A stretch of DNA of 64,000 bases, taken from the NCBI RefSeq assembly GCF_964194155.1, contig NC_135901.1:26102001-26166000 (forward strand), in the 5' to 3' direction. This DNA comes from Cetorhinus maximus. Its lineage: Eukaryota. Below are positions 1,204 to 60,440 of the stretch, one piece after another; positions within the stretch are counted from its first letter, which is position 1; the number at the start of each line of letters is the position of its first letter. A program made the position numbers and the translations under genes. Under the pieces are notes generated by a model. That model did no database searches. It saw nothing but the letters and a program-made list of their open reading frames with translations, and was not told the origin of the DNA.

Positions 1204-2604
1204 TAAATAAATTTCAGAGCTTCATGCCTAGGCCCTGCCAGCAATGGTGGGGTAATTAAAATCAGGGATGCTCTAAGAGGATAGAATGAGGGGAGCGCAG
1301 ATATATCAGAGAGTGTGAAACTGGAGATTATGGAGATAGGGAGGGTTGAAGTCATGGTTGGATTTGAAAACAAGAATGTAATTTTTAAAATTGAGGCATT
1401 GCTTGACCAGGAGCCACTGTAGGTCAGTGAGTGATGGGTGAACAAGACTTGGTGTGAGAAAGCACATGGGCAGCAGAGTTTTGGATGATCTCACGTTTCC
1501 ATGTTGGGGTGGGGTGAACATGAGAGGCTGATCAGAAATGCATTGGAATCATCGAGTCTAAAGGTAACATGGGCATGGATGAAGGTTTCAGTAGCAGATG
1601 AGCTGGGGTGGGGTGGAGACAGGCGACGTTATGGAGATTGAAATATCTGGTATTAGTGATGGTTAGAAATGTGGTCAGAATGTCATCTTGGGTTCAAATT
1701 GGGCTTTGGTCTTCCCAATTATTAATTGGGGGAAATTTCTGCTTATCCAGTACTGGATGTTGGATAAGCAGTGTGATAATTTAGTAACAGTGGAGGAATG
1801 GAGAGGGATGGTGGTGAGGTAGAGCTGGGCGTTGTCAGTGTACATGTGAAAACTAACATGGTGCTTTTGGATGATGTCACCTAGTGGCAGCCTGTAAATG
1901 AGGAATAGGAGGGACCAATGATAGATCCTTGGGGGACACCATGTACAAGGACTTTGGAGAGGAAAGGGAGGTTGGAGACGGGGTGGTAGTTTGCAAAAAC
2001 GGTGGGTTAAAGAGGTTTTTTTTAGGATGGATGATGACAATGAATTTAAAGGTGAGATGGACAGTATCAAAAAAGAGAGAACTGTTAACAATATCAACTA
2101 ACATGAGGAGGATGGACGGCTAACAGTTTAGTGAGAATAGGGTCAAGGGAGCAGAAGGCAGGTCTCATGGACAAAATTAGCACTGAAGGAGATAGAAGGA
2201 GAAAGACTGGAGAAAGATGCAAATTCAGGGCTTCAACAAGGGGGAACTTTACGGACAGTTTGTCCCGTTGAGCTAGTGGAAGGGAGGGAAGCAGCAGAGG
2301 CAGCTGATCAGCTTGTCTCAATCTTAGTGACGAAGAAGCTCCACGAGTTCCTCACACTTGTTGTTGGAGGTGAGTGTGGATGATACTAGGGAAAGGGAGA
2401 GCACTTCAAAAGGAACAAACTCATGTTAGTTTATGAAAAAGATTCAACAGACTGCGTGTTGAACACAAAGCTCTTTTATTTGGCTTTTATCCATAGTATT
2501 AGCTACAATAACTGGCCTAGAGTTTAATAACATCAGCAGAAACAGACCCCAATGAACAATGGTTCATCCCAAATATGATTAACAGAAAAATACAATCACT
2601 ATTT

Positions 2605-4227
2605 TTACTTGTGAATTCGCTGGTGTACCAGCAGGTTGGATGACTGTGTGAATCCTTTCCCACACTCAGAACAGGTGAACGGCCTCTCCCCAGTGTGAGT
2701 TCGCTGGTGTATCAGCAGGGTGGATGACTGAATGAATCCCTTTCCACACTCGGAACAGGTGAACGGCCTCTCCCCAGTGTGAATTCGCTGGTGTGTCAGC
2801 AGGGTGGATGTCTGACTGAACCCCTTCCCACATTCAGCACAGGTGAATGGCCTCTCCCCAGTGTGAGTGCGCTTGTGTGTCAGTAGGTGGGATGACCGAG
2901 TGAATCCTTTCCCACAGTTGGAGCAGGTGAACGGCCTCTCCCCAGTGTGAACTCGCTGGTGTTCCAGAAGGGTGGACGACCGAGTGAATCCCTTCCCACA
3001 CTCGGAGCATGTGAATGGTCTCTCACCAGTGTGAACTCGCTGGTGTGTCAGCAGGTTGGATGACCGAGTGAACCCTTTCCCACAATCAGCGCAGGTGAAT
3101 GGCCTCTCTCCAGTGTGAGTGTGTTTGTGTGTCAGCAGGTTGGATGAACAAGTGAATCCCTTCTCACAGTCAGAGCGGGTGAGTGGCCTCTCCCCAGTGT
3201 GAACTCGCTGGTGTTCCTGCAGGGTGGATGACCGAGTGAATCCCTTTCCACACTCAGGACAGGTGAACGGCTTCTCCCCAGTGTGAATTTGCTGGTGTGT
3301 CAGGAGGTGGGATGACTGAGTGAATCCCTTCCCACAGTCGGAGCAGGTGAATGGCCTCGCTCCAGTGTGAATGCGCTTGTGTGTCAGCAAGTTGGATGAA
3401 CAAGTGAATTCCTTCCCACAGTCGGAGCAGGGAAACAGCCTCTCCCCAGTGTGAACTCGCTGGTGTTCCAGCAGAGTGGATGACCGAGTGAATCCCTTCC
3501 CACACTCAGAGCATGTGAATGGTCTCTCACCAGTGTGAATTCGCTGGTGGACAATCAGATCAGTTGATCGCCTGAACCCAGTCCCACAGTGAGAGCACCT
3601 GAACGGTCTCTCGTCAGTGTGAACACGTTGATGAAACATCAGATCCCAGGAACTTTTATAGCACTTCCCACAGTCTGGGCATTTAAAAGGTCTCTCGTCA
3701 GTGTGAACTCGCTGGTGTGCCAGCAGGTGGGATGACTGAGTGAATCTCTTCCCACACTCAGAGCAGGTGAATGGTTTCTCCCCAGTGTGAATTCGCTGGT
3801 GTACAGTGAGGTCAGATAATGTCTTGAACCCAGTCCCACAGTGAGAGCACCTGAACGGTCTCTCGTCAGTGTGAACACGTTGATGGCCAGTCAGTTTCCA
3901 GGAACTTTTAAAGCACTTCCCGCAGTCTGGACATTTGAAAGGTCTCTCGTCAGTGTGAACTTGTCGATGTTGCAGCAGATGGGATGAACAAGTGAATCCC
4001 TTCCCACACTCAGAGCAGGTGAACGGCCTCTCCCCAGTGTGAACTCGCTGATGACTTTCCAGCTCTGATGGGTAATTAAATTCCTTCCCACAGTCCCTGC
4101 ATTTCCACAATTTCTCCCTGTTGTGACTGCATTTATGTTCTGACAGGCCAGATGATTGGCTGAAGCCTCGTACACACAAACACGTATAAGGTTTCTCCTC
4201 ACTGTGAATGGTGCTTTTTCCTTCCAT
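2605..4227 (-). CDS. C2H2 zinc-finger protein (type A, about 19 finger units, 2 degenerate), no effector domain
   Basis: Open ORF of CxxC...HxxxH repeats with TGERPF/TDERPF linkers. ATG at 4227 (the ORF-track start at 4233 is TTG); acceptor ttcacAG|G with exon start 4335; AATAAA on minus strand at 2475-2480. Confidence 0.9.
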
Positions 4228-4739
4228 GTTCAAAATCTGATGGTATTCAGGTTATGATAAATTAGGCGACTCTGTCAGATTTTGATGTGATGTTTGGCCT
4301 CAGCTTCCCGACTGCAAATCCTCCCCTTTAATGCCCTGTGAAATTGATTCAAAACAGAATAAGAGACAGAACCCACAAAAACACAAAGGCAGATTGTGAA
4401 TCTGGTAACTTGTGGGACTGGCACTAGGAAAAAGTGACCATGAAAACTGCTGGATTGTCATAAAAACCCAACTGGTTCATTAATGTCCTTCAGAGAAGGG
4501 AACCTGCCACCCAAACTGGTCAACACAAGATTCCAGCTTCGATGGGAGAAGAGAGCAAGAGAGAGAAGCTGTGGGGTGGGAGAGGCAAGGGTTGAAGAAG
4601 AGGGATTTTACATATCTACAAATCAACCAGAACTTTCACAGAACCTCCCAAACCCTCAACCTCCATCACCTAGAGGGACAAGGATAGCAGGTGTATGTGA
4701 ACACCACCATCTCCAAGTTTCCCCTCCAAGTCACACACC

Positions 4740-6776: not shown

Positions 6777-6945
6777 CTCTGAAACAATTTTACTCTTTTC
6801 AATATTAAAATCTCCTGCTGGAGCCTGCAGCTGAAAAGATATCGGAAGCACTGGAGTCAGAGAAAAATCTCCCAGTTGAGGAAATACCTGGGGAGTGGGG
6901 GTGATGTCACCGCTCAATTGTCGGTGTGTGATGACATCACAGACA
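6777..6945 (-). promoter_or_regulatory. Putative non-coding first exon and promoter of ZNF 2605-4227
   Basis: Strong donor cagag|GTGAGT (intron starts 6776 on minus); ETS-like CGGAAG near 6843; two TGATGTCA/TGACATCA motifs at 6902-6940. Confidence 0.5.
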
Positions 6946-6974
6946 CGAACACAGAACATCTGGGTCTGTGCAAA

Positions 6975-7800: not shown

Positions 7801-7829
7801 CACTTAAATGCTGATCAAATCCAGGTCCT

Positions 7830-10273: not shown

Positions 10274-11395
10274 TTACTTGTGAACTCGCTGGTGTCTCAG
10301 CAGGTTGGATGAGGTAGTGAATCCCTTCCCACACTTGGAGCAGGTGAACGGTCTCTCCCCAGTATGAACTCTTTGGTGTGTCAGCAGGTTGGATGACTGA
10401 GTGAATCCCTTCCCACAGTCGGAGCAGGTAAATGGCCTCGCCCCAGTGTGAACTCGCTGCTGTGTCAACAGGGCAGACGACTGAGCGAATCCCTTCGCAC
10501 ACTCGGAGTGGGTGAACGGCCTCTCCCCAGTGTGAACTCGCTGGTGTGCCAACAGGGTGGATGCCTGACTGAATCCTTTCCCACAGTCGGAGCAGACGAA
10601 CGGTCTCTCCCCAGTGTGAGTGCGCTGGTGTGTCAGCAAGTTGGATTTCTGAGTGAACCCCTTCCCACAGTCGGAGCAGGTGAAAGGTCTCTCCCCAGTG
10701 TGAATGCGCTGGTGTACAGTTAGTTGAGATGAGTGCCTGAACCCAGTTCCACAGTGAGAGCACCTGAACGGTTTCTCATCAGTGTGAACACGTTGATGGA
10801 GCATCAGGTCCACGGAACTTTTAAAGCATTTCCCACAGTCTGGGCATTTAAAAGGTCTCTCCCCAGTGTGAACTCGCTGGTGTGTCAGCAGATGGCATGA
10901 GTGAGCAAATCTCTTCCCACACTCAGAGCAGCTGAATGGCCACTCTACTGTGTGAATTCGCTGGTGTACATTGAGGACAGACAATGTCTTGAACCCAGAC
11001 CCACAGTGAGAGCACCTGAACGGTCTCTCGTCAGTGTGGACACGTTGATGGGCTGTCAGTTCCTGGGAACTTTTAACGCACTTCCCGCAGTCTGGACATT
11101 TGAAAGGTCTCTCGTCAGTGTGAACTCGTCGGTGTTTCAGCAGCGTGGATGAACAAGTGAATCCCTTCCCACACTCAGAGCAGGTGAACGGCCTCTCCCC
11201 AGTGTGAACTCGCTGATGATTTTCAAGCTCGGATGGGTAATTAAATCCCTTCCCACAGTCTCTGCATTTCCATGGTTTCTCCCCATTCTGACTGCATTTA
11301 TGTTTCGACAGGCCAGATGATTGGCTGAAGCCTCGTCCACACACAGAACACGTGTACGGTTTCTCTCCACTATGAACGGTGCTTTTTCCGACCAT
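10274..11395 (-). CDS. C2H2 zinc-finger protein (type A, 13 finger units, 2 degenerate)
   Basis: Open ORF with ATG at 11395; acceptor ttcacAG|G with exon start 11499; AATAAA on minus strand at 10150-10155; first 8 fingers collinear with 2605-4227. Confidence 0.88.
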
Positions 11396-11914
11396 GTTCA
11401 AATTCCAATGATATTCAGGTTACAATAAGCTGGGCAACTCTGTCAGATTCTGAAGTTTGGTTTCAGTTTCCCGATTGCAAATCCTCCCCTCCTAATACCC
11501 TGTGAAATTGACTGAAAACAGAGAAAAGGGAGTGAGAGAGAACCCCCAAAAACACAAGGACAGGTTGTGAAATTGAGCTGAATGAATCTGGTAATTTGTG
11601 GGGCCAGCACCAGGAAAAAGTGACCATGAAAACTGCTGGATTGTCATAAAAACCCAACTGGTTCACTAATGTCCTTCAGGGAAGGGAATCTCCCACCCAG
11701 TCTGGGCCTACACGAGACACTGGTCTAGATTGGAGAACATAACAAGAGAGAGAAGGGTTGGGTGGGAGAGGCAAGGTTGAAAAAGAGGGATTACAACTCC
11801 ATCAGAATTTTGACAGAAGGTCCAAAACCCTGAACCTCCACCACCTAGAAGGGCCAGGATAGCAGGTGTATGTGAACACCATCAACTCCATGTTCTCCTT
11901 CAAGTCACACACCG

Positions 11915-14387: not shown

Positions 14388-17074
14388 TCTTGTGTTAAGG
14401 AGTCAGTTACTGCAGTAAGGAGAGATGATATCTTGGAGGGGGCATCGAATGAAGCTTTGTGGATAGTGCTTAGGAATAAAAAAGGGGCAGCCACATTGTT
14501 AGGTGTTTATTATAGACCCCCAGATAGTCAGCGGGAAATTGAGGAGCAAATATCCACAATTTGTGGAGGTGTGTAAAAACAATAACAATAGGGTAAACAT
14601 ATTAGGTGATTTCAACTTTCCCAACATTAATTGGGATAGACATAGTGTCAAGGGCTTGGATGGAGTGGATTTCTTGAAATGTGTACAGGAGAACTTTTTA
14701 GGTCAATATGTAGAGGGTCCAACAAGGGACAGCACAGTGCTGGACCTAATTCTGGGGAATGAAGCCAGACAGGTGGCTGAGGTGGTGGTGGGCAAGCATT
14801 TTAGCGATAGCGACCACAACATGGTACAGTTTAAGCTTGTTATGGACAAAGAAATCGACAAATTGCAAAAAATTGTTTGGGATTGGGGGAGAGTGGATTT
14901 TCATAAAATAAGGCAGGATCTGGCCAAGGTAGACTAGGGAACAGTTACTTGTGGGGACATCTACAGAGGAGCAGTAGGGGGTGTTCAAAAAGGAAATGGG
15001 GAGGGTACAGGCTCAACATTTTCCCTCTAGGGTGATAGGAAGGAGTAACAAGCCCAGAGAACAATGGATGACCAGGTTACGATAAGAAGGAAAAGAGAGG
15101 CTTTTAGCAGGTACAAGGGAAGCAAATCAGCAGAGGCATGAGTGGAGTTCAGAAAATGCAGCGTGGAGCTTAAGAAACCAATTAGGAAAGCAAAGAGGGG
15201 ATATGAGAAAGCTCTGGCTGGTAAAAATAGGGAAAATCCCAAGATATTCTATTAGTATATCAATGGGAAGAGGATAACCAGGGAAAAAGTAGGGCCTAAA
15301 AGGGACCAAGGGGGAAATCTATGGGTGGAGCCAGAGAACATCACTAGAGTGTTGAATGAATGTTTCACATCCGTCTTCACCCAGGAGAATGAGGATGAAG
15401 GTATGGAACTCGGAGAGAAAGACTGCGAGGTTATTAAGCAAATTGATATAGGGAGTGACAAGGTATTGGAGTGTTGGCAGGCTTAAAAGTGGACAAATCT
15501 CCAGGTCCAGATGATTTGTGTGCCAGACTGCTGAGGGAGGCAAGGGAGGAGATCGCAGGGGCACTGACCCAAATTTTTAATTCCACTCTGGCCACAGGGG
15601 AGGTTCCAGAGGACTGGAGAACAGCTAATGTGGTTCCGCTATTTAAGAAGGGTTGTAGAGATAAGCCAGGGAACTACAGGTCATTAAGTCTCATGTCAGT
15701 GGTAGGGAAACTATTGGAGAAAGTTCTGAAGGAGAGTATCTATCTCCACTTGGAGAGGCAAGGTTTGCTCAGGGATAGTCAGCATGGCTTTGTCAGAGGG
15801 AGGTCATGCCTAACAAATTTGATTGACTTTTTTGAGGAGGTGACCAGGTGTGTTGATGAGGGTAGTGCAGTTGATGTAGTTTATATGGAATACAGCAAAG
15901 CCTTTGACAAGGTCCCACATGGGAGACTTATAAAGAAGGCAAATGCACATGGGATACAGGGTAATTTGATGAGGTGGATTCAAAATTGGCTTAGTTGTAG
16001 GAGGCAGAGGGTGATGACAGAAGGATGCTTTAGTGACTGGAAGCCAATGTCCAGTGGCGTACCACAGGGATCTGTGCTCGGTCCCCTATTATTTGTCATT
16101 TATATAAAACGACATAGATGACTATGTGGGGAGGGTGTAGGATTAGTAAGTTTGCGGATGACACAAAGATTGGCCAGGTAGTTAACAGTGAGGTTGAGTG
16201 TCTTGGGTTACAGGAAGATATAGACGGGATGGTCAAATGGGCAGATAAGTGGCAGATGGAATTGAACCCTGAAAAGTGTGAAGTAATACACTTTGGAAGG
16301 AGTAATTTGACAAGGAAGCATTCAATGAACGGCATGACACTAGGAAATTCTGAGGAACAAAGGGACCTCGGCGTGTGTGTCCATAGATCTCAGAAGGCAG
16401 AGGGGCATGTTGGTGGGGTGGTGAAAAAGGCATATGGGACACTTGCCTTTATCAATCAAGGCATAGATTACAAAAGTAGGGAGGTCATGTTGGAGTTGTA
16501 TGGAACCTTGGTGAGGCCACAGCTGGAGTACTGTGTGCAGTTCTGGTCGCCACATTATAGGAAGGATGTGATTACACTGGAGGGGGTGCAGAGGAGATTC
16601 ACCAGGATGTTGCCTGGGATGAAACATTTAAGTTATGAAGACAGGTTGGATAGACTTGGGTTGTTGTTGTTGGAGCAGAGAAGACTGAGGGGCGACCTGA
16701 TCGAGGTGTACAAGATTATGAGGGGCATGGACAGGGTGGATAGGGAGCAGCTGTTCCCCTTAGTTGAAGGGTCAGTCACAAGGGGGCATAAGTTCAAGGT
16801 GAGGGGCAGGAGGTTTAGGGGGGAATGTGAGGAAAAACGTTTTTACCCAGAGGGTGGTGACGGTCTGGAATGCGCTGCCTGGGAGGGTGGTGAGGCGGGT
16901 TGCCTCACATCCTTTAAAAAGTACCTGGATGAGCACTTGGCACGTCATAACATTCAAGGCTATGGGTCAAGTGCTGGTAAATGGGATTAGGTAGGTAGGT
17001 AGGTCAGGTGTTTCTCATGTGTCAGTGCAGACTCGATGGGCCGAAGGGCCTCTTCTGCACTGTGAGATTCTGTG
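14388..17074 (+). mobile_element. Young 5'-truncated CR1 LINE, APE endonuclease plus RT, disrupted
   Basis: ILGDFNFPNINW and SDHN (APE); [34 protein letters not shown] (RT); tail gattctgtg. Confidence 0.95.
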
Positions 17075-17139
17075 AGGACGAAATTTCACAACGTGAGTGT
17101 TAATAACCTGGAACTCAATACTTAAACTCAAAGGTTGAT

Positions 17140-17218
17140 GAATGGAGTGACTCGGGTCAGATCTTAATGTGATGTTTGGTTTTAGTTTGCTGTGTGCATA
17201 TCCTCCCTTTCTAACCCC
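17140..17218 (-). other. Orphan copy of the 5' end of the ZNF coding exon (acceptor plus linker)
   Basis: ttttacAG|ggggttagaaagggaggat...aaccaaacatcacattaagatctgac matches the exon starts at 4335, 26662 and 58809 but no fingers follow. Confidence 0.6.
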
Positions 17219-17299
17219 CTGTAAAAGGAGTTTCCAAAATCCATCCCTGTCAGTCCAGGGTAGAAATGCACAATATTCTCTCCTCCTGCTGACAGGGGA

Positions 17300-17730
17300 C
17301 AGGGACGACCGCGCACGCGCATTGCTGCACATTGACCCGGTAAAGATGGCGGTTGTTAACCCGGGCCTATCGCTGGAGACGCGATCCCGCAGCCTCCGTC
17401 CCACAGATACAAACTCGACACCAGTAGCTTCTCATTCTGAGTTCAGAGCCGCATCGTGTACTTACGAACCCGCCCCGTCCACCCACCGGCTCCGTTTCTC
17501 CCTCTACTCCGCAAATTCTCTTACCGCCTGAAGTTGAGACAAACAAGCGTCTTTCCATCGCCATTACCCGCACTGCGCATGCTCCAGATCACAATTTTCG
17601 GGGAATGATTGACGGCGGTTTATAACCAATAGGAATAGGGGGCAGGGCTGGAGGACCGAGCGGCTGGCCCCCCAACCAATCGGAGTGAATGAGGGGCGGG
17701 GCTTATCCCAGATCTTCCTCATTGGCTGAA
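17300..17730 (-). promoter_or_regulatory. CpG-island promoter/first exon (probably for ZNF 10274-11395)
   Basis: CpG-rich; YY1-type AAGATGGCGG 17343-17352; NRF1-like TGCGCATGC near 17574; several CCAAT boxes; GC box near 17692; candidate donors GTAAGT 17465 and GTAAGA 17525. Confidence 0.65.
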
Positions 17731-17899
17731 ACTCTTCTCATTTTGAAAGCTAATTTGCCTCAAACTGCAGGGGAAAATTGGATCTTTCTGTTTGTGGCTT
17801 TAAACAGATGAAACCCTGTGGGTGTGGAGTAAACATTTCAACATTTGTCACTGAAATGTGGGAACATGATGAAACAATGCAAACAATTGACCGACTTTA

Positions 17900-20832: not shown

Positions 20833-21651
20833 TCAGGAGGCATCATGACTGAGTGAATCCCTTTCCACACACATAGAGTTGAATGGTCTCTTCTCAGTGT
20901 GAATGCGTTGGTGGGTCAGCAGGTTGAAAGACTTTGCAAATCCCTTCCCACACAGCGAGCAAGTGAATGGTCTCTCCCCAGTGTGAACTCGCTGGTGTGC
21001 AGTGAGATTGGATGACCGATTGAATCCTTTCCCACACACGGAGCAGATGAACGGTCTCTCCCCAGTGTGAACTCGATGATGTAAAACGAGGTTGGAAGAC
21101 TGCCTGAACCTCTTTCCACAGTAAGTGCAGCTGAATGGCTTCTCCTCAGTGTGAGTTCGCAGGTGTCTCAGCAGGGTGGGCAAAACCGTGAATCCCTTCC
21201 CACACGTGGAGCAGGTGAACGGTCTCTCCCCAGTGTGAACTCGCTGGTGTAATGCTAGGTTGGATGACTGAGTGAATCTCTTACCACACTCAGAGCAGGT
21301 GAACAGCCTCTCCCCAGTGTGAGTGCGTTGGTGTGCAGTGAGGGCAGAAGAATGCCTGAATTTCTTCCCACAGGAAGTGCAGTTGAATGGTTTCTCCTCA
21401 GAGTGAATTCGCTGGTGTGACCAAAGGCCAGATGACTGAGTGAATCCCTGCCCACACACAGGGCAGGTGAACGGCCTCTCCCCGCTATGAACTCGCTGGT
21501 GTAATGATAGGTTGGATGACTGAGTGAATCCCTTTCCACACTCGGAGCAGGTGAACGGCCTCTCCCCAGTGTGACTGCGTTGATGGTTTTCCAGCAGGGA
21601 TGGGTAACTGAATCCTTTCCCACAATCATCACATTTCCACAGTTTCTCCAT
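20833..21651 (-). CDS. C2H2 zinc-finger protein (type B, 9 intact fingers; 10th frameshifted)
   Basis: ATG-initiated MEKLWKC...; the ancestral end HQQVHK* lies in another frame at about 20810-20835; acceptor exon start 22007; AATAAA on minus strand at 20583-20588. Confidence 0.75.
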   Translation of the reverse strand: MEKLWKCDDCGKGFSYPSLLENHQRSHTGERPFTCSECGKGFTQSSNLSLHQRVHSGERPFTCPVCGQGFTQSSGLWSHQRIHSEEKPFNCTSCGKKFRHSSALTAHQRTHTGERLFTCSECGKRFTQSSNLALHQRVHTGERPFTCSTCGKGFTVLPTLLRHLRTHTEEKPFSCTYCGKRFRQSSNLVLHHRVHTGERPFICSVCGKGFNRSSNLTAHQRVHTGERPFTCSLCGKGFAKSFNLLTHQRIHTEKRPFNSMCVERDSLSHDAS

Positions 21652-22044
21652 TGTGTGGGTGCGTTTGTGTTCCTATAGGTTGGACAATTGCTTGAAGCCT
21701 CATCCACACAGAACATGTGCACAGCTTCTCCCTCCTGTGAATACTGTGATGTTTTCCTCAGGCTGTGTGACTGGTTAAAACTCTTCCCACAGTCAGTTCA
21801 CTGGAACACTCTCTCTCGGGTCTGTGTCTTGGTGCTGTTCCAGTCACACTGATGTTTGAAATCTTTTCCCTCAGACAGAACAAACATTTCTTCTTCCACA
21901 TTCAAAGGCGGATGATATTGAGGTCCCGATGAATGGAATGACTCAACCAAAACTTGATATGAGGTTTGATCTGAATTTCACTTCTGCAATCCTTCACTTC
22001 GAAGTGGCTGTGAAAGAAGTTCACTAAAGTCATCACCATAGGTA

Positions 22045-22609: not shown

Positions 22610-23500
22610 TTTGTGTGCAAAGTGAGAACAAAATCAATGAATCAATCATTTTCTCTCCTGATCACTGGGACCCTGAAGCCCCGCCCACTCTCTGTTGCTT
22701 CACCGAAATGGCCGCACATAAAGCATAAAGTCCCGGAGCTGCAAAACGCGGGACCTGCAGGTTCTTACTGGGGGTTTGGGGCCTCCAGCGGGTGTTTCTG
22801 AATCCTCCCCGCCCACCTCCCAGGGTTTCCTTCCTTCCCACAGATCAGATTCCTCATTGATTTGAGCCCAAAGTGTAATCGCTTATTTATTGTCCCCCCT
22901 CCCCCATCCTCTGATGTGAACCATCCTCCACTCGCTGACCCAGGATGGCGGCCGTTAACCTGGGCCTGTTCCCGGGAGGGAGAAGCCCCGCAGCTGCAAA
23001 CCAGGAGCTGACAATTATTCCTCAGGGTTTGCGGATCCACAAAGTGTTTCCAAATCCTCCCCGTCCAGCCGCCGGCTCCATCGCTCCCTCCCTCCCGGGC
23101 CTGTCACCGTGGGGTAAACACGGGGCCTGGGGCCTACCCCAGAAGTTGATCCAGTTCCCAGTCCAGCCGCGGTTTCCATTCCTACCCTGTGCTCACAATC
23201 GCCTCCCGAAGCGTCCGCTCCTCCTCACTCTGTCACCATGACTGACACTGAGCATGCTCAGAGCGCACACCCACACTGCACCTGCGCACTGGGAGCTGGG
23301 CTCACCGGCTGCCGCCATCTTGGGAGAGGAAGGTGGGTCTTGTTCAGGGAGCCAGAATGATGAACGGCCATCTTGGTGAAGGCAGGGGAGTAAGGGCGGG
23401 GCTTCCTCCCCGGCGACTGGCCCGGGTTACCCGGGCAACCGGCCGCCGCCATCTTGCGCTGAGGGTTTTCCATCCGGGTCTTTAGTGAAGGAATGGACAA
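22610..23500. promoter_or_regulatory. Bidirectional CpG-island promoter between head-to-head ZNF genes
   Basis: CpG-rich; repeated YY1-type motifs (GATGGCGGC 22944; GCCGCCATCTT 23311 and 23445; GGCCATCTT 23367); lies between minus-strand ZNF 20833-21651 and plus-strand ZNF 26662-28121. Confidence 0.7.
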
Positions 23501-23604
23501 TTAGCTGGAGTTAGTTTGAAAACTGTTCAGAGGAAGGTCTGAAATCAGATTTACATCCAGATACCTGTAAGGACAATAAAGTTTACATCAATTATGTGTT
23601 TAAA

Positions 23605-24044: not shown

Positions 24045-25100
24045 CTACATACTGGAGCTCAATGTCTGAGGTTGAACTGATTCTGGTTTTGCTTTGAAGG
24101 TGGTGTTGGTTTCCCGTCTGTTCTGTTGATTATATCCACGCCCATGGGTAATTTTCTCAAGGTGAGATGCAGAGAGGAAAATGGAGAATGGGGCTGGTGC
24201 AATGACGCAGCCTTGTCTGATCCCATTCTTCACTGAGATAGGGTCTGTGGTGGTTCCGTTGATGAGGATCACGGCTGTCATATCATCATGGAGTAGGCAG
24301 AGGATGGTGGCAAATTTCTGAAGACAGCCACATTTGAGGAGGATATGGATAAAATGTGATGTTTGACAATGTAAAAGGCTTTTGTGAGGACAAAAAGGCT
24401 AAGGACAGCGTTTGGTGCTGTTCCTTGCAATTTTCTTGGGTTTGCCGTGCAGTGAAGATCACGTCTCTGGTGCCTTTCGATGGGGGAAAACCGCACTGTG
24501 AATCTGGAAGGAGCTCTTTGGCCACTAAGAAAAGGTGATTGAGGAGAATCCTTGTTATGATTTTTCCTGTGGCAGGCAGCAGGGAGACTCCTCTGTAATT
24601 ACCGCAATCAGACTTGTCTCCCTTCCTGAAAATCGTCACAATCACAGTGTCCCAGAGATTCCCCAACATGGACTCTTTGGTGAGGAGGGATATGAGGTTG
24701 TGCAACCGGGCCAGGAGTGTAACTCCACCGTGTTTCAGAATTCTGGCAGGGATTCCATCTGCTCGAGAGGTCTTCTTGTTTTTCAGCTGTCAAATGGCTT
24801 TTTCATTTTCATGCTGGACCGTGGTGGCACCAAGACTGAGCCAAATGGGGTATTGAGGAATGGAGTTGAGGACCTCGAAGTCAAAAACAGAGTCTTGGTT
24901 GAGGAGTTCTTCAAAATGTTCTCTCCAGTGACACTGGCTGACTCTCTGTCCTTGATGAGCTCCCTCCGTGCTTGGCTGTCAGTGAGGTTGGCCCTTAAGT
25001 GCTTGAGCCATAGATTGTCTTGACAGCGCTGAGGAAACCACAAATGTTGTTTCTGTCCACGAGTCGTTGGATCTCCTGTGCACTTTCTGCCCACCATCTG
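24045..25100 (-). mobile_element. RTE-clade LINE, inverted 5' segment (RT N-terminal half)
   Basis: KGDKSDCGNYRGVSLL, LLPDSQCGF, IFTARQTQENCKEQ, GIRQGCVIAP; ends at ELQYV (YADD region). Confidence 0.85.
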
Positions 25101-40590: not shown

Positions 40591-40779
40591 CCCAGAAATT
40601 CAGACAATATAAATATTTTTCTTGGTTTGAGTTCAGTGTGTGTGAATCCTCCCCTTCTAACCCCCTGTAAAAGGAGTTTCCAAAATCTATCCCTGTCAGT
40701 CCATGATGGAAATTCATAACATTCACTTCTCATGTTTCCTGGCCCAGGATGATTGCATAAGTGCCCTGCTGCACATTGC

Positions 40780-41060
40780 CTTTTGTCGTCATTAGCAGTC
40801 CCTTGATTTGAGGATGACGTCTACTGTGTCATGAGTTTCTGCAATGGGTCTTCATCTCGCTGAACAGAGATGTGGGTCTTTGGACACATAGGGCAGAAAT
40901 TCCCATGAGGCATTAGGATCAGGAGAGCAGGATTTGCTTCCTTTTCTTGCCTTCTGTGCACCGCACTGCCTCATCAATAAGACGCTGGGACTTAAAGGGT
41001 AATGCAGCTTGATGGTCAAGTTGTCACCATTCTGAACTATGGGGAACAAACTTTTCCGTG
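40780..41060 (-). mobile_element. RTE-like 3' end fragment
   Basis: Reverse complement resembles the RTE 3' end at 26150-26225 (gtcatcctcaaatcaagggactgc). Confidence 0.45.
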
Positions 41061-41079
41061 TCATTAAAAACATTGTCCC

Positions 41080-41430
41080 CTACAAAGATGGCGGCCGCAC
41101 ATGCGCCTGCTGCACATTGCCCCCAATAAACATAGCGACCCGGTGTCTGGAAGCTGTGGCCTCGCTCCATGCAAACGGGGGACCGATAAGATCTTTTTCT
41201 GGGTTTGGGCTTGCCCAACATGTTTACGAAGCCTCCCCGCCCAATCGCCGGATCCATTGCTCCCTTTGTCCCGCCATCTTCCTCTTACCGATTGCAGATC
41301 TGACGAAGAAATGCCTCTGCATCGCCATTACCTGCATTGCGTATGCTTCAGTCACAGCCTGGCCCCGCCCCTCATTCACTCCGATTGGTTGGAGGACAAA
41401 CCGCTCCCTCGCGATCCTCCAACCCCACCC
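41080..41430 (-). promoter_or_regulatory. CpG-island promoter/first exon, paralogue of 17300-17730
   Basis: AAGATGGCGGCCG near 41086; candidate donor cg|GTAAGA near 41288; CCAAT and GC-box motifs; orphan acceptor exon starting 40664. Confidence 0.6.
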
Positions 41431-41664
41431 CTTCTTCTCATTGATGTAGGCTTTTCAGAGATCTTGGGATTCTCTTCAAATCGTTCCAGGGTGTTGTCCC
41501 TAAAGGCTAAATACACATTCTATTTTTATATAATTCTCTGCATCCAGATCCTTTTAAGCAAGCCTCGGAAATGAGGAAATAATGAGTTGTTGCCCAGATT
41601 TAAAGTGATTTGTAAAAGAAGCAAACTTAGAAAAAGTTAGAAAAAACTTTTTCACATGAGTGGT

Positions 41665-43265: not shown

Positions 43266-43875
43266 GATATCTTTCCAGCTGCCGGCTCCAGCAGGAGAGT
43301 TTAAAATTGAAAACTGAAATTGTTTCAGAGCTGAGTATTTTTGACCATTCGTTTACAATTTATAGCTTTTCATGCTCTGCTCTGTTTTCTGTGAGAGGTT
43401 CCATGGCTCTGGGGCTGGTGTTACTCCTTTACTGTGGATCTGAATCCATTGCTCTGTTTCACCTCTGCCCTCCTTGATCACCTCTCTGCCATTGTCTAAC
43501 TTCCTCTGTCTCTAATAATGAATGTATTTTAGTTTTGTTTCGCATTTTACTGTTCCCTCTGCCAACCATATATAAACGAGGTTTCCACTGCTACCCATCC
43601 CCTGACCATGTGCTGCTGGCTTACCAGCTCTTCTGCTTTTGAGCTTATATTGATCATCAAATTTTGCACCATTTTTGTTGCCTGTAATTCATTCTACAGG
43701 TCCTGAATCATTCATTTTGTTTCTCTCTCCACCGATTCCAGCATATATTGTCAGTCCCAGTTGCCTGTGGAGAAGATGATGTTTGACCTTCTTGAACCGC
43801 TGCAGTCCATGTGGTGAAGGTGCTCCCACAATGCTGTTAGGTAAGCAGTTGCAGGATTTTCACCCAGTGATGATG
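43262..43875 (+). other. Inverted orphan duplicate of ZNF exon 1/intron 1 (homologous to 5830-6850)
   Basis: Reverse-complement match to 5830-6850; donor mutated GTGAGT to CTGAGT at 43331. Confidence 0.75.
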
Positions 43876-47391: not shown

Positions 47392-48285
47392 TCAGTCCTG
47401 GATGTGATTAACAGCAGCAGTAACTGCAGAATCCAAGCCCTGTAACCTGTGAGCTCGCTGGTGTGTCTGCAGGGTGGATGAACGACAGAATCCCTTCCCA
47501 CAGATGGAGCAGGTGAACGACCTCTCCCTGGTGTGAACGCGCTGGTGTTTTAGCCTGAGGGAATGCTGAATGAATCCCTTCCCACATACGGAGCAGGTGA
47601 ACGGCCTCTCTCCAGTGTGAGTGCGCTGGTGAGTCAGCAGATCCATTTTGCCTTTAAAACTCTTCTCGCAGTCGGAACATTTAAAAGGTCTCGTGTCAGA
47701 GTGAACACGTTGGTGTGAAGTGAGGTGGGGAAGCTGAGTGAATCCCTTTCCACACTCAGTGCAGGTGAATGGTCTCACCCCAGTGTGAATGCGCTGGTGT
47801 CTCAGCAAGGTGGATAACTGAGTGAACCCCTTCCCACACACAGAACAGGTGAACGGCCTCTCCCCAGTGTGAACTCGCTGATGATCCAACAGTTTGCATA
47901 ACTGAGTGAATGCCATCCCACACTCAGGGCATGCGAATGGTTTCTCCCCAGTATGAACTCGCTGATGTAACTGAAGGCTGGATAACTGAGTGAATCGCTT
48001 CCCACACTCAGCACAGGTGAACGGCCTCTCCCCAGTGTGAACTCGCTGGTGAGTCAGCAGGTTTTGTTTTCTTTTAAAGCTCTTCTCACAGTTAAAACAT
48101 TTAAAAGGTCTCGTGTCAGAGTGAACAAGTTGGTGTGCAGTGAGGTGGGTTAGTCGAGTGAATCCTTTCCCACACTCAGAACAGATGAACGGCCTTTCCC
48201 CGGTGTGACTGCGTCGATGAATTTCCAACGCAGATGGTGATGTGGATCCCTTCCCACAGTCTCCACATTTCCATGGTTTCTCCGT
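47392..48285 (-). CDS. C2H2 zinc-finger ORF (10 fingers); canonical ATG changed to ACG and C-terminus extended; functional status uncertain
   Basis: Uninterrupted array from (T)EKPWKC; ACG at 48285-48283 where paralogues have ATG; acceptor exon start 48600; AATAAA on minus strand at 46444-46449. Confidence 0.6.
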   Translation of the reverse strand, partial: TEKPWKCGDCGKGSTSPSALEIHRRSHTGERPFICSECGKGFTRLTHLTAHQLVHSDTRPFKCFNCEKSFKRKQNLLTHQRVHTGERPFTCAECGKRFTQLSSLQLHQRVHTGEKPFACPECGMAFTQLCKLLDHQRVHTGERPFTCSVCGKGFTQLSTLLRHQRIHTGVRPFTCTECGKGFTQLPHLTSHQRVHSDTRPFKCSDCEKSFKGKMDLLTHQRTHTGERPFTCSVCGKGFIQHSLRLKHQRVHTRERSFTCSICGKGFCRSSTLQTHQRAHRLQGLDSAVTAAVNHIQD

Positions 48286-49159
48286 GGTGTCAATCTCCTT
48301 GTGTCGCTCCAGGTTGGATGATTAGTTGAAGTCTCGTTCACACAGAACACGTGTGGTTTCTCCCCACTGTGAATGGTGCAATGTAGTTTCAGGACGTGTA
48401 ACTGGTTAAAGCTCTTTCGACAATCAGGGCACTGGAACACTCTCATTCGGGTGTGAGTGTGTTGGTTTTTTTCCAGTCCCAGGCAGAACATACAAAAAAT
48501 TCTCCTTCCACATTCAAATGCCGATGATATTCAGGTCCTGATGAATCGAGTGACTTTGTCAGATCTGCAGAAATTTTTGCAAATTATCTCCTTCTAATCC
48601 CTGGAAAAGGAGTTGACAGAGTCAGTACCACTATCAGCCCAGGATAGAAATTCAGAATAGGCAACTCTAGTTCCGATGGAACATTCTTTCTTCTCTTGTT
48701 TCCCCAAAGATGTGGTTCAATCAAAGTAAAAGAAGAGAAAATCAGCAACAAAGTCCCAACAAGAGTTCAGAGAACCTTTCTATATCAACTAGAATGTTGT
48801 TCTCCGTGTATATGAAACACTCCGAACCCTGATGTCCCCACCAATTATGGAAGATGGACACCACTTGCTCCCTGTGCACGGTTACCTAGGCACAGACGAG
48901 GCTGCGAAAGAGGCTGGCACCTAGTGTAAACCCACCCCCATCCCCACCATATGCCCCTTACATCTTGGATCTGCAAATTGTTGTTTTAACCAAGACCAGG
49001 TCCAGGATAAGATCCTCTAACTTACCTAGTCCCTCCACATTGGGCAGGCAAAGATTATAACCAAGCCCTTCAGGTAACTATACAGGGGTTGCAACCTCTC
49101 ATAGGCCCATGGATTCCTCTGGGCTGCAAACATCACCTGGGTTCAGATGAATCGACCGG

Positions 49160-49520
49160 ACCCGAGAACTCGGTTGGGAACAAAGACCCTAAAGGTCCGC
49201 CTACTCGGTTACGTCACCGACCCGCCAGCGCATGCGCTCTGCGCCCTGCTAAGCCAAGATGGTGGCCGTTCACTTGGGCCTGTTTCTTGGTCTCCTACGC
49301 GAAGCTGCAAACGCGGGAGCTGCAGGTTCGTATTTGCGGCTTGAGGTTTTCACCAGGTGTTTAGAAACCCTCCCCGTTGACCCGCCGGCTCCATCGCTCT
49401 CTCCGCGTTTCCGCATCCTTACCGGTTTGGGGACACGACAGACAAGAGACTCTCCAGAGCCATCACTAAGCATGCTCCAAACAATGGGCGGTACTGCGCA
49501 TGCGTCCTACTCCTGTTGTG
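49160..49520 (-). promoter_or_regulatory. CpG-island promoter/first exon of ZNF 47392-48285
   Basis: NRF1 palindromes GCGCATGCGC 49228-49237 and TGCGCATGCG 49495-49504; YY1-like CAAGATGGTGGC near 49255; candidate donor ccg|GTAAGG near 49420. Confidence 0.7.
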
Positions 49521-49579
49521 GGGATAGGGGTCATTCAAAATCGCGGGGGATGCTGGGTAACGTTCCCGCCATCGGGAAC

Positions 49580-49965
49580 TGATCTATCGTTTTATCTCCA
49601 CCTTTTAGCCCATTTCGATCCCTTCCCCCCACCCCACCCCCATTAGGGCCATCTGTCACTCGCTTGTCCTGCTTTCTACCCTTAATGTCACCATTAGCAC
49701 ATTCCTTAGATAATATCACCACCGTCAACACCTCTTTGTCCTTTTGTCTGTGATATCTTTAGCAATCTCTTCTTTGCCTCTACCTATCACTGGCCCTCTA
49801 TCCAGCTCTACCTGTCCCACCCCCCCTCAACCTGCTTATATTTCACCACATTTCTATATTTCTTTAGTTCTGATGAAGAGTGATATGGACTCAAAACGTT
49901 AACTGTGTTCCTCTCCGCAGATGCTGTCAGACCTGCTGAGTTTTTCCAGCTATTTTTGTTTTTGT
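49580..49965 (+). mobile_element. Penelope-like terminal repeat with a hammerhead motif (G12 mutated)
   Basis: agtt-CTGATGA-a-gagt...actc-AAAA-cg-tt-aact at 49866-49904; upstream part matches 61995-62055 in reverse complement. Confidence 0.7.
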
Positions 49966-52479: not shown

Positions 52480-53340
52480 CTGAAGCATGCTCAGTGTCGC
52501 TTTGATCAGAACCATGCAAGTGCTAGATGTGCTCTTCAGGCAGGTGAGTTGATGGCACGCAGAGGATCAAGGCTTCAGGAAAAACCTGGTAAAGGCCATA
52601 AGGCCTGAATAAGAACCTGCAGGGCCCACGTTTGCCACTCTGGGGCTTTTTCCCGGGAACAGGCCTGGGTTAATGGCTGCCATCCTGCTTCAGTAAGTAG
52701 CACAGCAAATGCGTGGCCATTTTAGTGAGAGAACAGGGAGTGGATGAGGCTTCAGGATCCCAGTGACCAGGAAAGAAAGTTATTGAGTCATTGATTTCAG
52801 TACCAGTCTGCACACAACTGAGAACTGAACCCAGCCAGAGTAGAAGGAGAAAACTGGGAGTGGAGGAAAGGAATGGTGGAGATGGCACGATGAGTTTGCT
52901 TCTCATCACGAGGAGGAAAGCACCAAGACACAAACCCAAGTGAGAGTTTTCCAGTGCACTAGCTGTGGAAAGAGCTTTAACCAGTTACATTGCATGAAAA
53001 ACATCACACCATTCACAGCAGAGAGAAACCGTAAACGTGTTTTGTGTGCATGGACCAGGCTTCAACTGGTCATCCAACCTAGAGACACATGGACAAGGAC
53101 ACAAGGCAGCATGGAGAAACTATGAAAATCTGAGGAGTGTGGGAAGGAATTCAGTTATCCCAGCTGAATGTCATCAGCGAACTCACAGAGGGGAGAGGTC
53201 ATTCACCTGCCCCATCTGCTGGAAGGGATTCACTCAGTCATCTAGCCTGCTGTTACACCAGCAAGTGCACACAGGTGAGAGGTTATTCACCTGCTGTGTG
53301 CATGGGAAGAGAACCACTCAGTCATTTACCTGCTTCCTGT
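52480..53340 (+). pseudogene. Heavily decayed type-B ZNF with a CpG-depleted promoter relic
   Basis: [16 protein letters not shown] and [41 protein letters not shown] in different frames; acceptor region deleted; a separate ZNF 3'-end relic at 52188-52265. Confidence 0.8.
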
Positions 53341-57864: not shown

Positions 57865-58455
57865 TCACTTGTGAACCCGCTCATGTCTCAGCAGGTATTG
57901 TGACTGAGTGAATCCCGACTCACAGAAGGAGCAGGTGAACGGTCTGTCTCCGGTGTGAACTCGCTGACGTGTCAGCAGTTGGGATGACCAAGGGAATCCC
58001 TTCCCACACACGGAGCAGGTGAATGGCTTCTCCCCACTGTGAGTGCATTGGTGTTCATTGAGGTCAGTTGACTACCTGAAACTCTTTCCACAGGAAGTAC
58101 AGCTGAATGGATTCTCCTTCGTGTGCATTTGGTGGTGTGACTGGAGGGCGAATACCTGAGTGAATCCCTTCCCACACACGAAGCAAGTGAATGGTCTCCC
58201 ACCCGTGTGAATTCGCTGGTGTTCAGTGAGGATGGATGAAGATTTGAACTTGTGTCCACAGGTTGTGCAGCTGAATGGCTTCTTCTCAGTGTGAACTCGC
58301 TGGTGTGACCGAAGGCCGGATGACTGAGTGAATCCCTTCCCGCACACGGAACAGCTGAACGGCTTCTCCCCTGTGTGAATGTGTTGATGGATTTCCAGCC
58401 GGGATGAAGAATTGAATCCTTTCCCACAGGCCTCACATTTCCACGGTTTCTCCAT
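57865..58455 (-). pseudogene. Type-B C2H2 ZNF, 7 fingers with a nonsense codon in finger 5 (may encode a 4-finger truncation)
   Basis: MEKPWKC...; TAG at 58074-58072; frame continues to RHERVHK* at 57865; acceptor exon start 58809; AATAAA on minus strand at 57635-57640. Confidence 0.75.
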
Positions 58456-58972
58456 GGTGCCAGTGTCCTTATATCTCTTCAGGTTCAACAATCAGTTGAA
58501 GCCTTGTCCACACACAGAACACGTGTACAGTTTCTCCCCGCTGTGAATGGGGTGGTTTTTTCAGGCTATGTAACTGGTTAAAGCTCTTTCCACAGTCAGT
58601 TCACTGGAACTCAGGTGTGTATGTCTCAGTGATTTTCCAGTCACACTGATGTTTAAAACCTTTTCCCACAGACGGAAGAGAGAAACATTTCTCCTCCCAC
58701 ATTGAAAGGTTGATGACATTCAGGTCCTGGAGAATTGAGTGACTCTGTCAGATCATGCTGTAATGTTTGTTTTGAGCTTCCTGTATGTAAATCCACCCGT
58801 TCTAATACCCTGGAAGAGGAGTTTACAAAATTCATCACTGTAAATAAAGAATAGAAATTCTGAACAGACAAACTCTGGCTTCTATGGAACCTGTTTTCCT
58901 CCCTTGTTCCTGCAAAACAGTAAATCCTCATCCCACATACTCTCCCTTCTCCCCATGCTGGATTCCAAACTC

Positions 58973-59257
58973 CAGAGTGACCAACCATACAGGATTTTAC
59001 AGAAATGTCCCATATTTGAGTCAGCTGTCCTGGGCTTCCTGGTGCCGGAATACTGGTTGTCCCATAAATTGGACCTTTCTGGTCACGCCCCACACAGAAC
59101 CCTTTCCCCTACTGTTTCTGTGCAGCCAATTCACCCCATTCCCCCCTGCCTCACCAGCTCTGGCAGCATCCCACCCAACAGCCCCCACCCCGCCACCTAC
59201 TCGTATGGACTCCCATGGCAGGCTATCACTTAATTTTCTCCATGAGAGGTCATCCTA
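58973..59257. mobile_element. Non-autonomous hAT-like DNA transposon (MITE)
   Basis: Imperfect TIRs cagagtgacc / ggtcatccta; 8-bp TSD ccaaactc / ccaaaccc; empty site near 22514. Confidence 0.7.
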
Positions 59258-59349
59258 CCAAACCCCTCATACCTTCTCCACCATTTCTTTCTTCACTTCC
59301 AGTTTTATCCCTCTGTCTACTCTGGCTGGGTTCTGTTCTCAAGTCTCTG

Positions 59350-60440
59350 TGTGGAGAGTGAGAATATCATCAATGAATCAATCGTTTTCTCTCCTGGTCA
59401 CTGGGACCCTGAAGCCCCGCCCACTCTTTGTTGCATCACACAGAAAGTAAAAAGCCCCGGAGCTGCAAACGCGGGACCTGCAGGTTCTGAAGAAGAGTCA
59501 TACGGACTCGAAACGTTAACTCTGTCTTTCTCTCCACAGATGCTGTTAGACCTGCTGAGTTTTTCTGTTTTTGTTCTTACAGGTTGTTATTGGGGATTTG
59601 GGGCCTCCAGCGGGTGTTTCTGAATCCTCCCCGCCCACCTCCCAGGGTTTCCTTCCTTCCCACAGATCAGATTCCTCATTGATTTGAGCCCAAAGTGTAA
59701 CCTCATATTTATTGTCCCCCCCTCCCCCATCCTCTGATGTGAACCATCCTCCACTCGCTGACCCAGGATGGCGGCCGTTAACCTGGACCTGTTCCCGGGA
59801 GGGAGAAGCCCCACAGCTGCAAACCAGGAGCTGATAATTATTCATAACGGTTACTCCAGCTCACAATGCCCGGGGAGTGATTGACGGGAGGGACGGACCA
59901 ATGGGAAAAGGGGATGCGGCTGGGGACCCTCAAAAGAGCGGCTGGTCCTCCAACCAATCGGACTGAATGAGGGGCGGGGCTGAGCCCATAACTCCGCGTG
60001 CGCCCTGCTGCACACTGTCCCCGATGAAGATGGCGGCTCTTAGCTCGGGTCTGTCTTGGGGAAAAACCTGAGAAGTTTTCGCCCGTTCAAATGCCGTAGC
60101 CGAGCTTCATATTCGGAGCTTGGAACCTACACGAGGTGTTTTTGAAGCCTCCCAACCTACCCGCCGCATTCTTCCATTCATGACCCAACCGGAGATGACT
60201 CGCCGGCTGAGAATTTTGACACAGCCACTTCTGTCATCCGTTTTCATCGGTATTGCGCATGCTCCAGCTCACGGTGCCCGGCTGATTGGCAGCAACTCCG
60301 GACCAATAGGTAAACGGGGTGGGGGGGGCGGGTCTGGAGGACGGATAGGGTGTGGTTGGTCCTCAAGCCAATCAGAGTGAATGAGGGGCGGGGCTGAGCC
60401 CGGATCTCCCTCATTGGCTGAAACTCTGCATCATTTTAAA
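59350..60440 (-). promoter_or_regulatory. Composite CpG-island promoter region of ZNF 57865-58455
   Basis: 59350-59845 near-identical to 22610-23030; 59850-60440 homologous to 17300-17760 with a duplicated CCAAT/GC-box module; YY1 AAGATGGCGG near 60028; TGCGCATGC near 60254. Confidence 0.7.
59483..59521 (+). ncRNA. Minimal type I hammerhead ribozyme motif within a 100-bp Penelope-like insertion
   Basis: Stem I GGTT/AACT; core CTGAAGA; one extra A; stem II GAGTC-ATACG-GACTC; GAAA; palindromic AACGTT stem III region. Confidence 0.75.

What the first reader, a model, noticed from the sequence alone, without database searches (positions are those of the whole stretch)
2400..60440. KRAB-less C2H2 zinc-finger gene cluster in birth-and-death evolution among young retrotransposons
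Seen: nine or more ZNF loci in 64 kb at every stage from intact to relic, each with a single coding exon whose ATG sits directly before the finger array. No KRAB, SCAN or BTB sequence is visible, and the loci are interleaved with young CR1, RTE, Tx1 and Penelope copies. Known: KRAB-ZFP clusters repress TEs in tetrapods, and cyprinid fishes have a separate FiNZ-ZNF expansion. Inference: this may be an independent, effector-less chondrichthyan TE-recognition system, acting by steric blocking or through an unknown partner.
Basis: partly seen in the sequence, partly recalled or inferred. Interest (0 to 1): 0.8.

Follow-up and report, generated by a model that had tools for sequence, protein, structure and literature searches.

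The report
Shark chromosome of bare zinc fingers
This window is a small piece of a shark chromosome that carries thousands of rapidly duplicating zinc-finger genes, whose proteins seem to be DNA-binding fingers alone, without the silencing domain that similar genes carry in mammals and carp-like fishes; what they bind is still unknown.

Summary
The cluster is real: nine C2H2 loci (four intact from ATG, one with an ACG start, two broken, two relics). It is a sample of something larger. Relatives lie along all of the 65-Mb contig C24 (roughly 1,600-6,000 arrays), and a three-gene block is segmentally duplicated four times.

The genes have several exons but one coding exon. In all 40 typed copies with five or more fingers, in-frame stops lie between the conserved splice acceptor and a strong-context ATG. 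The leader evolves like non-coding DNA, while arrays are under purifying selection (dN/dS about 0.35; base-contacting residues 0.75). An upstream effector exon therefore cannot be in frame in most copies. A minority (19 of 150) have an open leader, also unconstrained. The genome's only KRAB match is on another contig.

The retrotransposon argument fails. LINE cover on C24 is near background, and the RTE piece is old and was copied along with the genes. TE targeting is plausible by analogy but untested.

Shark ZNF expansions are already counted in print. I found no description of this architecture or of a shark-restricted acidic first finger. No RNA evidence was obtained.

The parts
2605..4336 (-). 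Gene A array exon (type 1). Acceptor at 4336, 109-nt leader with two in-frame stops, ATG 4227, 540 aa, 17 canonical fingers
6777..6830 (-). 54-nt upstream exon predicted for gene A (AG acceptor, GT donor); no sign of coding constraint
   Evidence: predicted from sequence, splicing not shown
10274..11499 (-). Gene B array exon (type 1). Leader with in-frame stop, ATG 11395, 373 aa, 11 canonical fingers
14394..17075 (+). CR1-type LINE remnant inside the inferred intron of gene B
17125..17810 (-). CpG island (17151-17750) and short exon that duplicates the start of the leader (acceptor near 17218); inferred promoter region of gene B
   Evidence: matches the promoter region of paralogue locus L167 at 89-96%
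20833..22007 (-). Gene C array exon (type 2). 356-nt leader with three decayed fingers and stops, ATG 21651, 272 aa, 9 fingers
22801..23600 (.). CpG island between head-to-head genes C and D; inferred shared promoter region
   Evidence: the function is inferred
24200..24900 (-). Old RTE-type fragment, co-duplicated with the ZNF unit
   Evidence: 95-96% to four C24 segmental copies, 78-85% to further C24 copies, 76-77% elsewhere; RVT_1 hit; the RTE label is recalled
26662..28121 (+). Locus D (type 2), broken by a frameshift after the ATG at 27017 and by internal stops; close copies L036 and L038 have open arrays of 13 and 11 fingers
29600..29870 (-). Relic of a type-1 array start (about three decayed fingers)
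31946..33091 (-). Gene E array exon (type 1). Leader with stops, ATG 32983, 345 aa, 12 fingers
34627..37296 (+). Young CR1-type LINE (endonuclease and RT; ORF interrupted by two stops) in the inferred intron of gene E
40580..41500 (-). Leader-duplicate exon (acceptor near 40664) and CpG island (40951-41500); inferred promoter region of gene E
43279..43330 (+). Orphan, damaged copy of the 54-nt upstream exon (52 nt, donor lost)
47392..48600 (-). Locus G (type 2): open array of 10 fingers, but ACG at the usual start position (48285) and the usual stop lost; status uncertain
48951..49700 (.). CpG island between head-to-head loci G and H
52900..53335 (+). Relic locus H (type 2; frameshifted, one recognisable finger)
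57868..58809 (-). Locus I (type 2). ATG 58455, premature stop in the fifth finger
59751..60500 (.). CpG island, inferred promoter region of locus I

Best explanation
The window samples a shark tandem C2H2 family that fills most of one 65-Mb chromosome-scale contig and grows by DNA-level segmental duplication while copies decay.

SHOWN: each gene has a terminal exon with a non-coding leader and a finger array that starts at an internal strong-context ATG, so most products are 9-17 fingers with no appended domain. Arrays are under purifying selection, and specificity residues diversify fastest.

INFERRED FROM SEQUENCE: CpG-island promoters and short non-coding upstream exons. The leader was probably once a coding spacer (in frame with the fingers; type 2 keeps three dead fingers in it), so the bare state is probably secondary.

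INFERRED BY ANALOGY ONLY: the proteins are a large library of sequence-specific DNA binders, most likely for repeats and retroelements as with KRAB-ZFPs and FiNZ-ZNFs. Any cofactor would have to be recruited by the array itself (the conserved acidic first finger is the candidate), or the proteins act by occupancy alone. My odds: anatomy about 0.85, repeat or TE targeting about 0.5-0.6.
For: SCALE. 7 of 20 evenly spaced 10-kb samples of C24 hold arrays (10 arrays in 200 kb; extrapolated 3,258, Poisson range 1,562-5,992), against 0 fingers in 64 kb from 8 other contigs. Leader searches gave 3,709 and 4,283 first-look candidates (these are not copy numbers). By my count 118 of the 150 best leader-peptide matches are on C24, 30 on small contigs, and 1 each on C15 and C37.

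BARE STATE. 40 of 40 typed copies with at least 5 fingers have an in-frame stop after the acceptor (58 of 58 if untyped and broken ones are included). Leader dN/dS is 0.63-0.69 in the array frame versus 0.66-0.83 in other frames. Indels that shift the frame: leader 7 of 12, 24 of 27 and 8 of 8; arrays 2 of 4; array dN/dS 0.34-0.36. No internal acceptor reaches a pyrimidine fraction of 0.75 (0 of 28; mean 0.33 versus 0.67 for the main acceptor). The genome has one KRAB match, on C34. None of the 150 scored SCAN matches is on C24. None of 13 chondrichthyan relatives listed carries KRAB, SCAN or BTB.

BIRTH AND DEATH. The A-D-E block recurs at 21.4, 22.3 and 24.8 Mb.

SPECIFICITY. dN/dS is 0.75 at positions -1, 2, 3 and 6 versus 0.38 at other non-structural positions (134 matched fingers, 14 gene pairs).

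CONTEXT. ZNF and retroelement counts correlate across metazoans independent of accessory domain (PMC10547256, sections read).
Against: No transcript evidence was obtained, so exon structure and expression are predicted. No binding or repression data exist here. dN/dS at contact residues is below 1, which fits relaxed constraint as well as positive selection. The contrast with structural positions is inflated because fingers were selected for having Cys and His. TEs are not clearly enriched on C24 (15.9% versus 12.3%, small samples). 19 of 150 best matches to an open-leader query have no stop and an open frame of at least 230 aa (my count), so the bare state is not forced in every copy. Samples were biased to relatives of the window's genes. 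Only 150 of 4,987 SCAN candidates were scored. BTB and ZAD were not searched genome-wide, and FiNZ could not be searched.
Confidence: 0.55

Rival explanations
1. The family is real and bare but has little to do with TEs. It expands by unequal crossing-over in a duplication-prone chromosome, many copies are redundant, and those that matter regulate host genes, their own cluster, satellites or RNA.
For: Contact-residue dN/dS is not above 1. There are many broken copies. LINE cover is near background. The TE in the unit is an old passenger. Wells et al. note non-TE targets of KZNFs and propose genome stabilisation rather than silencing (PMC10547256 discussion).
Against: Arrays are under clear purifying selection with almost no frameshifts, while contact positions change twice as fast as other surface positions. 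The gene architecture and first finger are kept in other sharks.
Confidence: 0.27
2. A short, undescribed N-terminal effector (FiNZ-like or KRAB-like) is encoded upstream and spliced in frame, either in the open-leader minority or through an alternative acceptor, and these copies do the silencing.
For: An open leader runs into 11-15 fingers in 6 of the 13 candidate loci that were read in frame (16 fetched, 3 mis-anchored). A horn shark model also has the leader open (P0005). The 54-nt exon keeps its length in 21 of 25 copies and is open in the frame that would join the leader in 20 of 21 full-length copies.
Against: The leader of open copies shows pN/pS 0.84 in the array frame (6 pairs, one locus used twice), and all 12 keep the internal ATG. 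The 54-nt exon has an ATG in that frame in 1 of 25 copies, and its pN/pS (0.53) is like that of a frame with a universal stop (0.60). The upstream duplicate exons vary in length. N-termini of annotated shark models look unrelated to each other by inspection, and the two scanned hit no Pfam family.
Confidence: 0.13
3. The ZNF unit is itself a mobile element or a set of retrocopies.
For: Very high copy number and a single coding exon.
Against: Copies keep introns, promoters and shared old insertions, recur as multi-gene blocks, and are almost confined to one contig.
Confidence: 0.03

Closest known systems
KRAB zinc-finger protein clusters of tetrapods
   Same: Clustered tandem C2H2 genes with the array in the terminal exon, birth-and-death turnover and fast-changing contact residues (PMC10547256 passages).
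   Different: No KRAB: one match in the whole genome, on another contig. Stops in the leader block any in-frame upstream domain in most copies. TE targeting and TRIM28 recruitment are not shown.
FiNZ-ZNFs of cyprinid fishes (zebrafish chromosome 4q)
   Same: KRAB-free, hundreds to thousands of copies concentrated on one chromosome (PMC10547256 section 4).
   Different: FiNZ genes have a coding 28-aa exon upstream of the array exon. Here the upstream exons and leader look non-coding and translation starts inside the array exon. The scale is larger (about 3,000 estimated arrays against 684 genes).
Elasmobranch ZNF expansions already counted or mentioned in print
   Same: ZNF ORF counts of 3,586 (small-spotted catshark), 1,851 (white shark), 1,223 (thorny skate) and 475 (elephant shark) in supplement file 2 of PMC10547256. 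Recently duplicated ZNF clusters on catshark chromosomes 13 and 17 (PMC11979771 passage). ZNF copies around MHC-Ia-like genes (PMC10751288 passage). The window very probably belongs to this expansion.
   Different: The passages seen give counts or a mention only; none describes gene anatomy, the lack of an effector or the first finger. C24 is not the MHC class I contig (C22), and none of the 150 scored histone matches is on C24.
KRAB-like ZNFs of ray-finned fishes (proposed TRIM33 partners)
   Same: A non-KRAB vertebrate ZNF group proposed to control TEs (PMC11603059 passages).
   Different: They carry an N-terminal KRAB-like domain; none was found here, though no profile for it was available.

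Membership tests
Tandem C2H2 (Kruppel-type) zinc-finger genes | At least five tandem 28-aa C2H2 repeats with the conserved linker | tested here: met
   PF00096 matches 17, 12, 12, 10 and 9 times in A, B, E, G and C; 84-bp period
KRAB-ZFP | KRAB domain N-terminal to the array | tested here: not met
   No PF01352 in 182 upstream frames; single genome-wide match on C34, PRDM9-like by recall
KRAB-ZFP | Upstream coding exon spliced in frame to the array exon | tested here: not met
   In-frame stops after the acceptor in 40 of 40 typed copies; exceptions exist, 19 of 150
KRAB-ZFP | TRIM28-dependent repression of TEs | not testable with these tools
   Needs binding and repression assays; presence of TRIM28 in the genome was not searched
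FiNZ-ZNF | 28-aa acidic FiNZ domain in its own first coding exon | tested here: inconclusive
   No FiNZ profile was available. Indirectly excluded for most copies by the leader stops; not excluded for open-leader copies
FiNZ-ZNF | Cyprinid distribution | tested here: not met
   The leader peptide matches only shark proteins, 6 of 6 hits
SCAN-ZNF (ZSCAN) | SCAN domain N-terminal to the array | tested here: not met
   None in window frames; 0 of 150 scored genome matches on C24, 4,987 candidates in all
BTB-ZF / ZAD-ZNF | BTB or zf-AD domain N-terminal to the array | tested here: not met
   No such Pfam hit in window frames; not searched genome-wide
TE-targeting ZNF systems (works-like claim) | Rapid or positive selection at base-contacting residues | tested here: inconclusive
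   dN/dS 0.75 (0.56-0.98) versus 0.38 elsewhere; not above 1
TE-targeting ZNF systems (works-like claim) | Binding sites enriched in TE sequence; derepression on loss | not testable with these tools

The most novel reading that the evidence does not exclude
Sharks have a third, independent vertebrate zinc-finger system for recognising repeats and TEs, housed on a dedicated chromosome. It discarded its N-terminal coding exons and uses a conserved, acidic, shark-restricted first finger (Trp before the first Cys; Tyr-Pro-Ser at the helix start) as the cofactor dock, while the remaining fingers diversify to read DNA.
Probability: 0.2. Interest if true: 0.85.

Novelty: new variant of a known kind. 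Interest (0 to 1): 0.55.

Why it matters
Whether tandem zinc-finger expansions need a fused silencing domain to control TEs is open. Cartilaginous fishes lack KRAB-ZFPs yet have some of the largest ZNF counts. If thousands of arrays here really are bare, either arrays can work by occupancy or a finger can serve as the effector. The shared leader and start context also make the family testable in bulk, as was done for FiNZ-ZNFs with one translation-blocking oligonucleotide. If the TE link fails, it remains an uncharacterised chromosome-scale gene family.

Tried and rejected
RNA. No RNA holder listed (22 runs, none on record as RNA). Contigs of 4 of these runs laid on 4,001-24,000 at 88% likeness were swamped by paralogues and CR1. 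None of the 15 joints shown (1,246 not shown) was a splice into an array exon, so the call says nothing on splicing or expression.

Stop-codon readthrough at the conserved TGA of type-2 leaders. Rejected, because further stops and mostly frameshifting indels follow it (24 of 27).

The leader as a conserved upstream peptide. No clear frame-specific constraint (0.69 versus 0.79 and 0.83, intervals overlap), though not strictly excluded.

Histone-ZNF fusion, suggested by a sawshark model with H2A joined to the leader (P0002). No histone match on C24 among 150 scored; treated as read-through or an annotation artefact.

C24 as the MHC chromosome. Rejected: the class I matches are on C22 and two small contigs.

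TE interleaving as evidence of an arms race. Rejected.

A protein search with the first 60 residues of A returned mostly generic ZNFs.

Earlier scan findings: none.

One search had a pattern error and was redone. Three of 16 open-leader loci were mis-anchored and left out.
Full report
1. Observation. A six-frame scan found C2H2 arrays at seven places and relics at two more. A (540 aa, 17 canonical fingers), B (373 aa, 11), C (272 aa, 9) and E (345 aa, 12) are open from an ATG to a stop. G has 10 open fingers but ACG at the usual start. D and I are broken. The pieces near 29.7 and 53.1 kb are relics. Pfam confirms the fingers. No KRAB, SCAN or BTB was found in 182 of 182 upstream sense-strand frames of at least 36 codons, LINE-covered frames left out. 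The nine loci and the range from intact to relic are confirmed.

2. Scale. The window is C24:26.10-26.17 Mb of a 3.99-Gb genome, and C24 is 65.2 Mb long. DNA searches with two non-finger leaders gave 3,709 and 4,283 first-look candidates; the 40 scored matches of each were on C24 or small contigs. By my count 118 of the 150 best matches of the leader peptide are on C24 (0.4-64.4 Mb), 30 on small contigs and 2 on other large contigs. Of 20 evenly spaced 10-kb samples, 7 held arrays, 10 arrays in all. That extrapolates to about 3,260 arrays (1,560-5,990). Eight 8-kb samples from other contigs held no finger. The best class I MHC matches are on C22, and the scored histone matches are mainly on C32 and C39, so C24 is neither. 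The leader peptide matches only shark proteins (6 of 6 hits), so the organism is a shark.

3. Gene anatomy. Each array exon begins at a conserved splice acceptor 104-109 nt (type 1: A, B, E) or 315-356 nt (type 2: C, D, G, I) before the start codon. The start codons sit in strong contexts (the consensus is recalled). Five CpG islands lie upstream of the loci, two of them between head-to-head pairs. Paralogue L161 shows the whole plan: a CpG-island exon, short exons that duplicate the start of the leader, a 54-nt exon, then the array exon. The window holds the same parts. This structure is predicted from sequence; the RNA attempt was uninformative.

4. Is there a hidden effector? Among 89 unique exon starts, all 40 typed copies with at least five fingers have an in-frame stop between acceptor and array (58 of 58 with untyped and broken copies). 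In independent pairs the arrays have dN/dS 0.34-0.36 with 2 frameshifts in 4 indels. The leaders have 0.63-0.69, similar to their other frames (0.66-0.83), and mostly frameshifting indels (7 of 12, 24 of 27, 8 of 8). No good internal acceptor lies after the last stop (0 of 28). The genome has one KRAB match, on C34, which looks like PRDM9 by recall and serves as a positive control. The SCAN matches are dispersed, with none of 150 scored on C24. Against this, a search with an open leader from a horn shark model found 19 of 150 copies with no stop and a long frame, six of which run into 11-15 fingers. Even these keep the internal ATG (12 of 12) and show no constraint on the leader (pN/pS 0.84, six pairs). 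The 54-nt exon is length-conserved, has an ATG in the joining frame in 1 of 25 copies, and shows no frame-specific signal. The bare state is thus well supported for most copies and probable for the rest.

5. Origin. The leader is in frame with the fingers in open copies, and type-2 leaders contain three decayed fingers. The stop that ends the type-2 leader frame falls where sawshark and horn shark models end (P0002-P0004). I infer that the ancestor had a coding spacer joined to an upstream exon and that internal starts replaced it early in shark evolution. This is inference.

6. Turnover. Close copies of A, D and E occur in the same order and spacing at 21.4, 22.3 and 24.8 Mb. D is broken here, while two close copies have open arrays of 13 and 11 fingers. 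The RTE-type fragment beside D is 95-96% identical in four C24 copies but only 76-77% off C24, so it is old and was copied with the genes. The CR1 at 34.6-37.3 kb is young (96-97% to dispersed copies). LINE-protein cover is 15.9% in the C24 samples, 12.3% on other contigs, and 20.7% in the window without self matches. The TE neighbourhood is therefore ordinary for a shark genome; two-thirds of the catshark genome is TE (PMC11979771 passage).

7. Function. In 434 fingers from 39 genes, entropy peaks at helix positions -1, 3 and 6. In 134 matched fingers, dN/dS is 0.75 (0.56-0.98) at contact positions against 0.38 at other non-structural positions. This fits diversifying DNA binders but does not prove positive selection. 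One finger type stands out. It lies first or second in 31 of 39 genes, has proline at +1 in 35 of 35 such fingers (picked by Trp or Tyr-Pro), low entropy at -1, 1, 2 and 5, and a net acidic helix (-1.2 versus +0.26). Its motif is in 11 of 15 chondrichthyan database proteins and 0 of 121 others (the hits came partly from a query containing it). It could be a protein-docking finger. Shared ancestry of first fingers could also explain its conservation: positions 3 and 6 still vary, and last fingers are also less variable.

8. What is known. Wells et al. (PMC10547256; I saw passages, sections 4, 6 and 10, and matching rows of supplement files 1 and 2; files 3, 4, 5 and 7 were not searched and may bear on sharks) count 475-3,586 ZNF ORFs in chondrichthyan genomes. 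The main text does not mention sharks, and no chondrichthyan is among the seven species tested for TE binding. Passages in PMC11979771 and PMC10751288 mention shark ZNF clusters. [quoted passage not shown] PMC11603059 (passages) finds only PRDM9 in whale shark and proposes TRIM33 as a partner in fish. PMC10208646 and PMC11620358 (passages) added nothing on sharks. Nine literature searches (listings only) showed no paper on the anatomy of this family. The library lacks most subscription papers, so this is not proof of absence.

9. Verdict. This is a real, chromosome-scale, effector-less tandem ZNF family: a new variant of a known kind. It is not a KRAB, SCAN or FiNZ family member. That it works like KRAB-ZFPs or FiNZ-ZNFs against repeats is the likeliest reading but rests on analogy. 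Interest 0.55.

Noticed in passing
window 4,337-10,270: Gene A has no CpG island of its own upstream. Paralogue L167 has promoter and duplicate exon about 0.9-1.5 kb before the 54-nt exon, whereas A and two other copies have a CR1 remnant there. A may have lost its promoter or may use that of B.
   Followed up: partly
window 22,758-23,029 and 59,580-59,852: Two promoter-region pieces are 95% identical, far above the 72% of their genes; possible recent conversion or duplication.
   Followed up: no
window 51,038-51,673: 63-bp minisatellite, 10 copies, 90% matches, with an open 246-aa frame on the minus strand and no Pfam hit.
   Followed up: no
window 45,351-45,675; 42,868-43,264; 28,963-29,313: Further tandem repeats of 66, 29 and 23 bp.
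   Followed up: no
L011 (G000:C34:9,123,034-9,123,144): The only KRAB match in the genome; resembles the PRDM9 KRAB exon by recall.
   Followed up: partly
G000 genome-wide (L062-L067 as examples): 4,987 SCAN-like candidates scattered over many contigs, probably Gypsy-type retrotransposon capsid sequence (recalled); not examined.
   Followed up: no
G000:C32:8.7-21.4 Mb and C39:1.0-1.9 Mb: Very large histone gene arrays; the search had 2,465 candidates.
   Followed up: no
P0002 (database protein): A sawshark model joins histone H2A to the ZNF leader peptide, which suggests histone and ZNF genes are neighbours in that species.
   Followed up: partly
leaders of type-1 and type-2 genes: Synonymous-type divergence in the non-coding leader (0.13-0.18) is lower than at synonymous sites of the array (0.23-0.33), hinting at nucleotide-level constraint or homogenisation.
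   Followed up: no
window 52,187-52,300: Isolated copy of the family's 3' untranslated sequence with no array.
   Followed up: no
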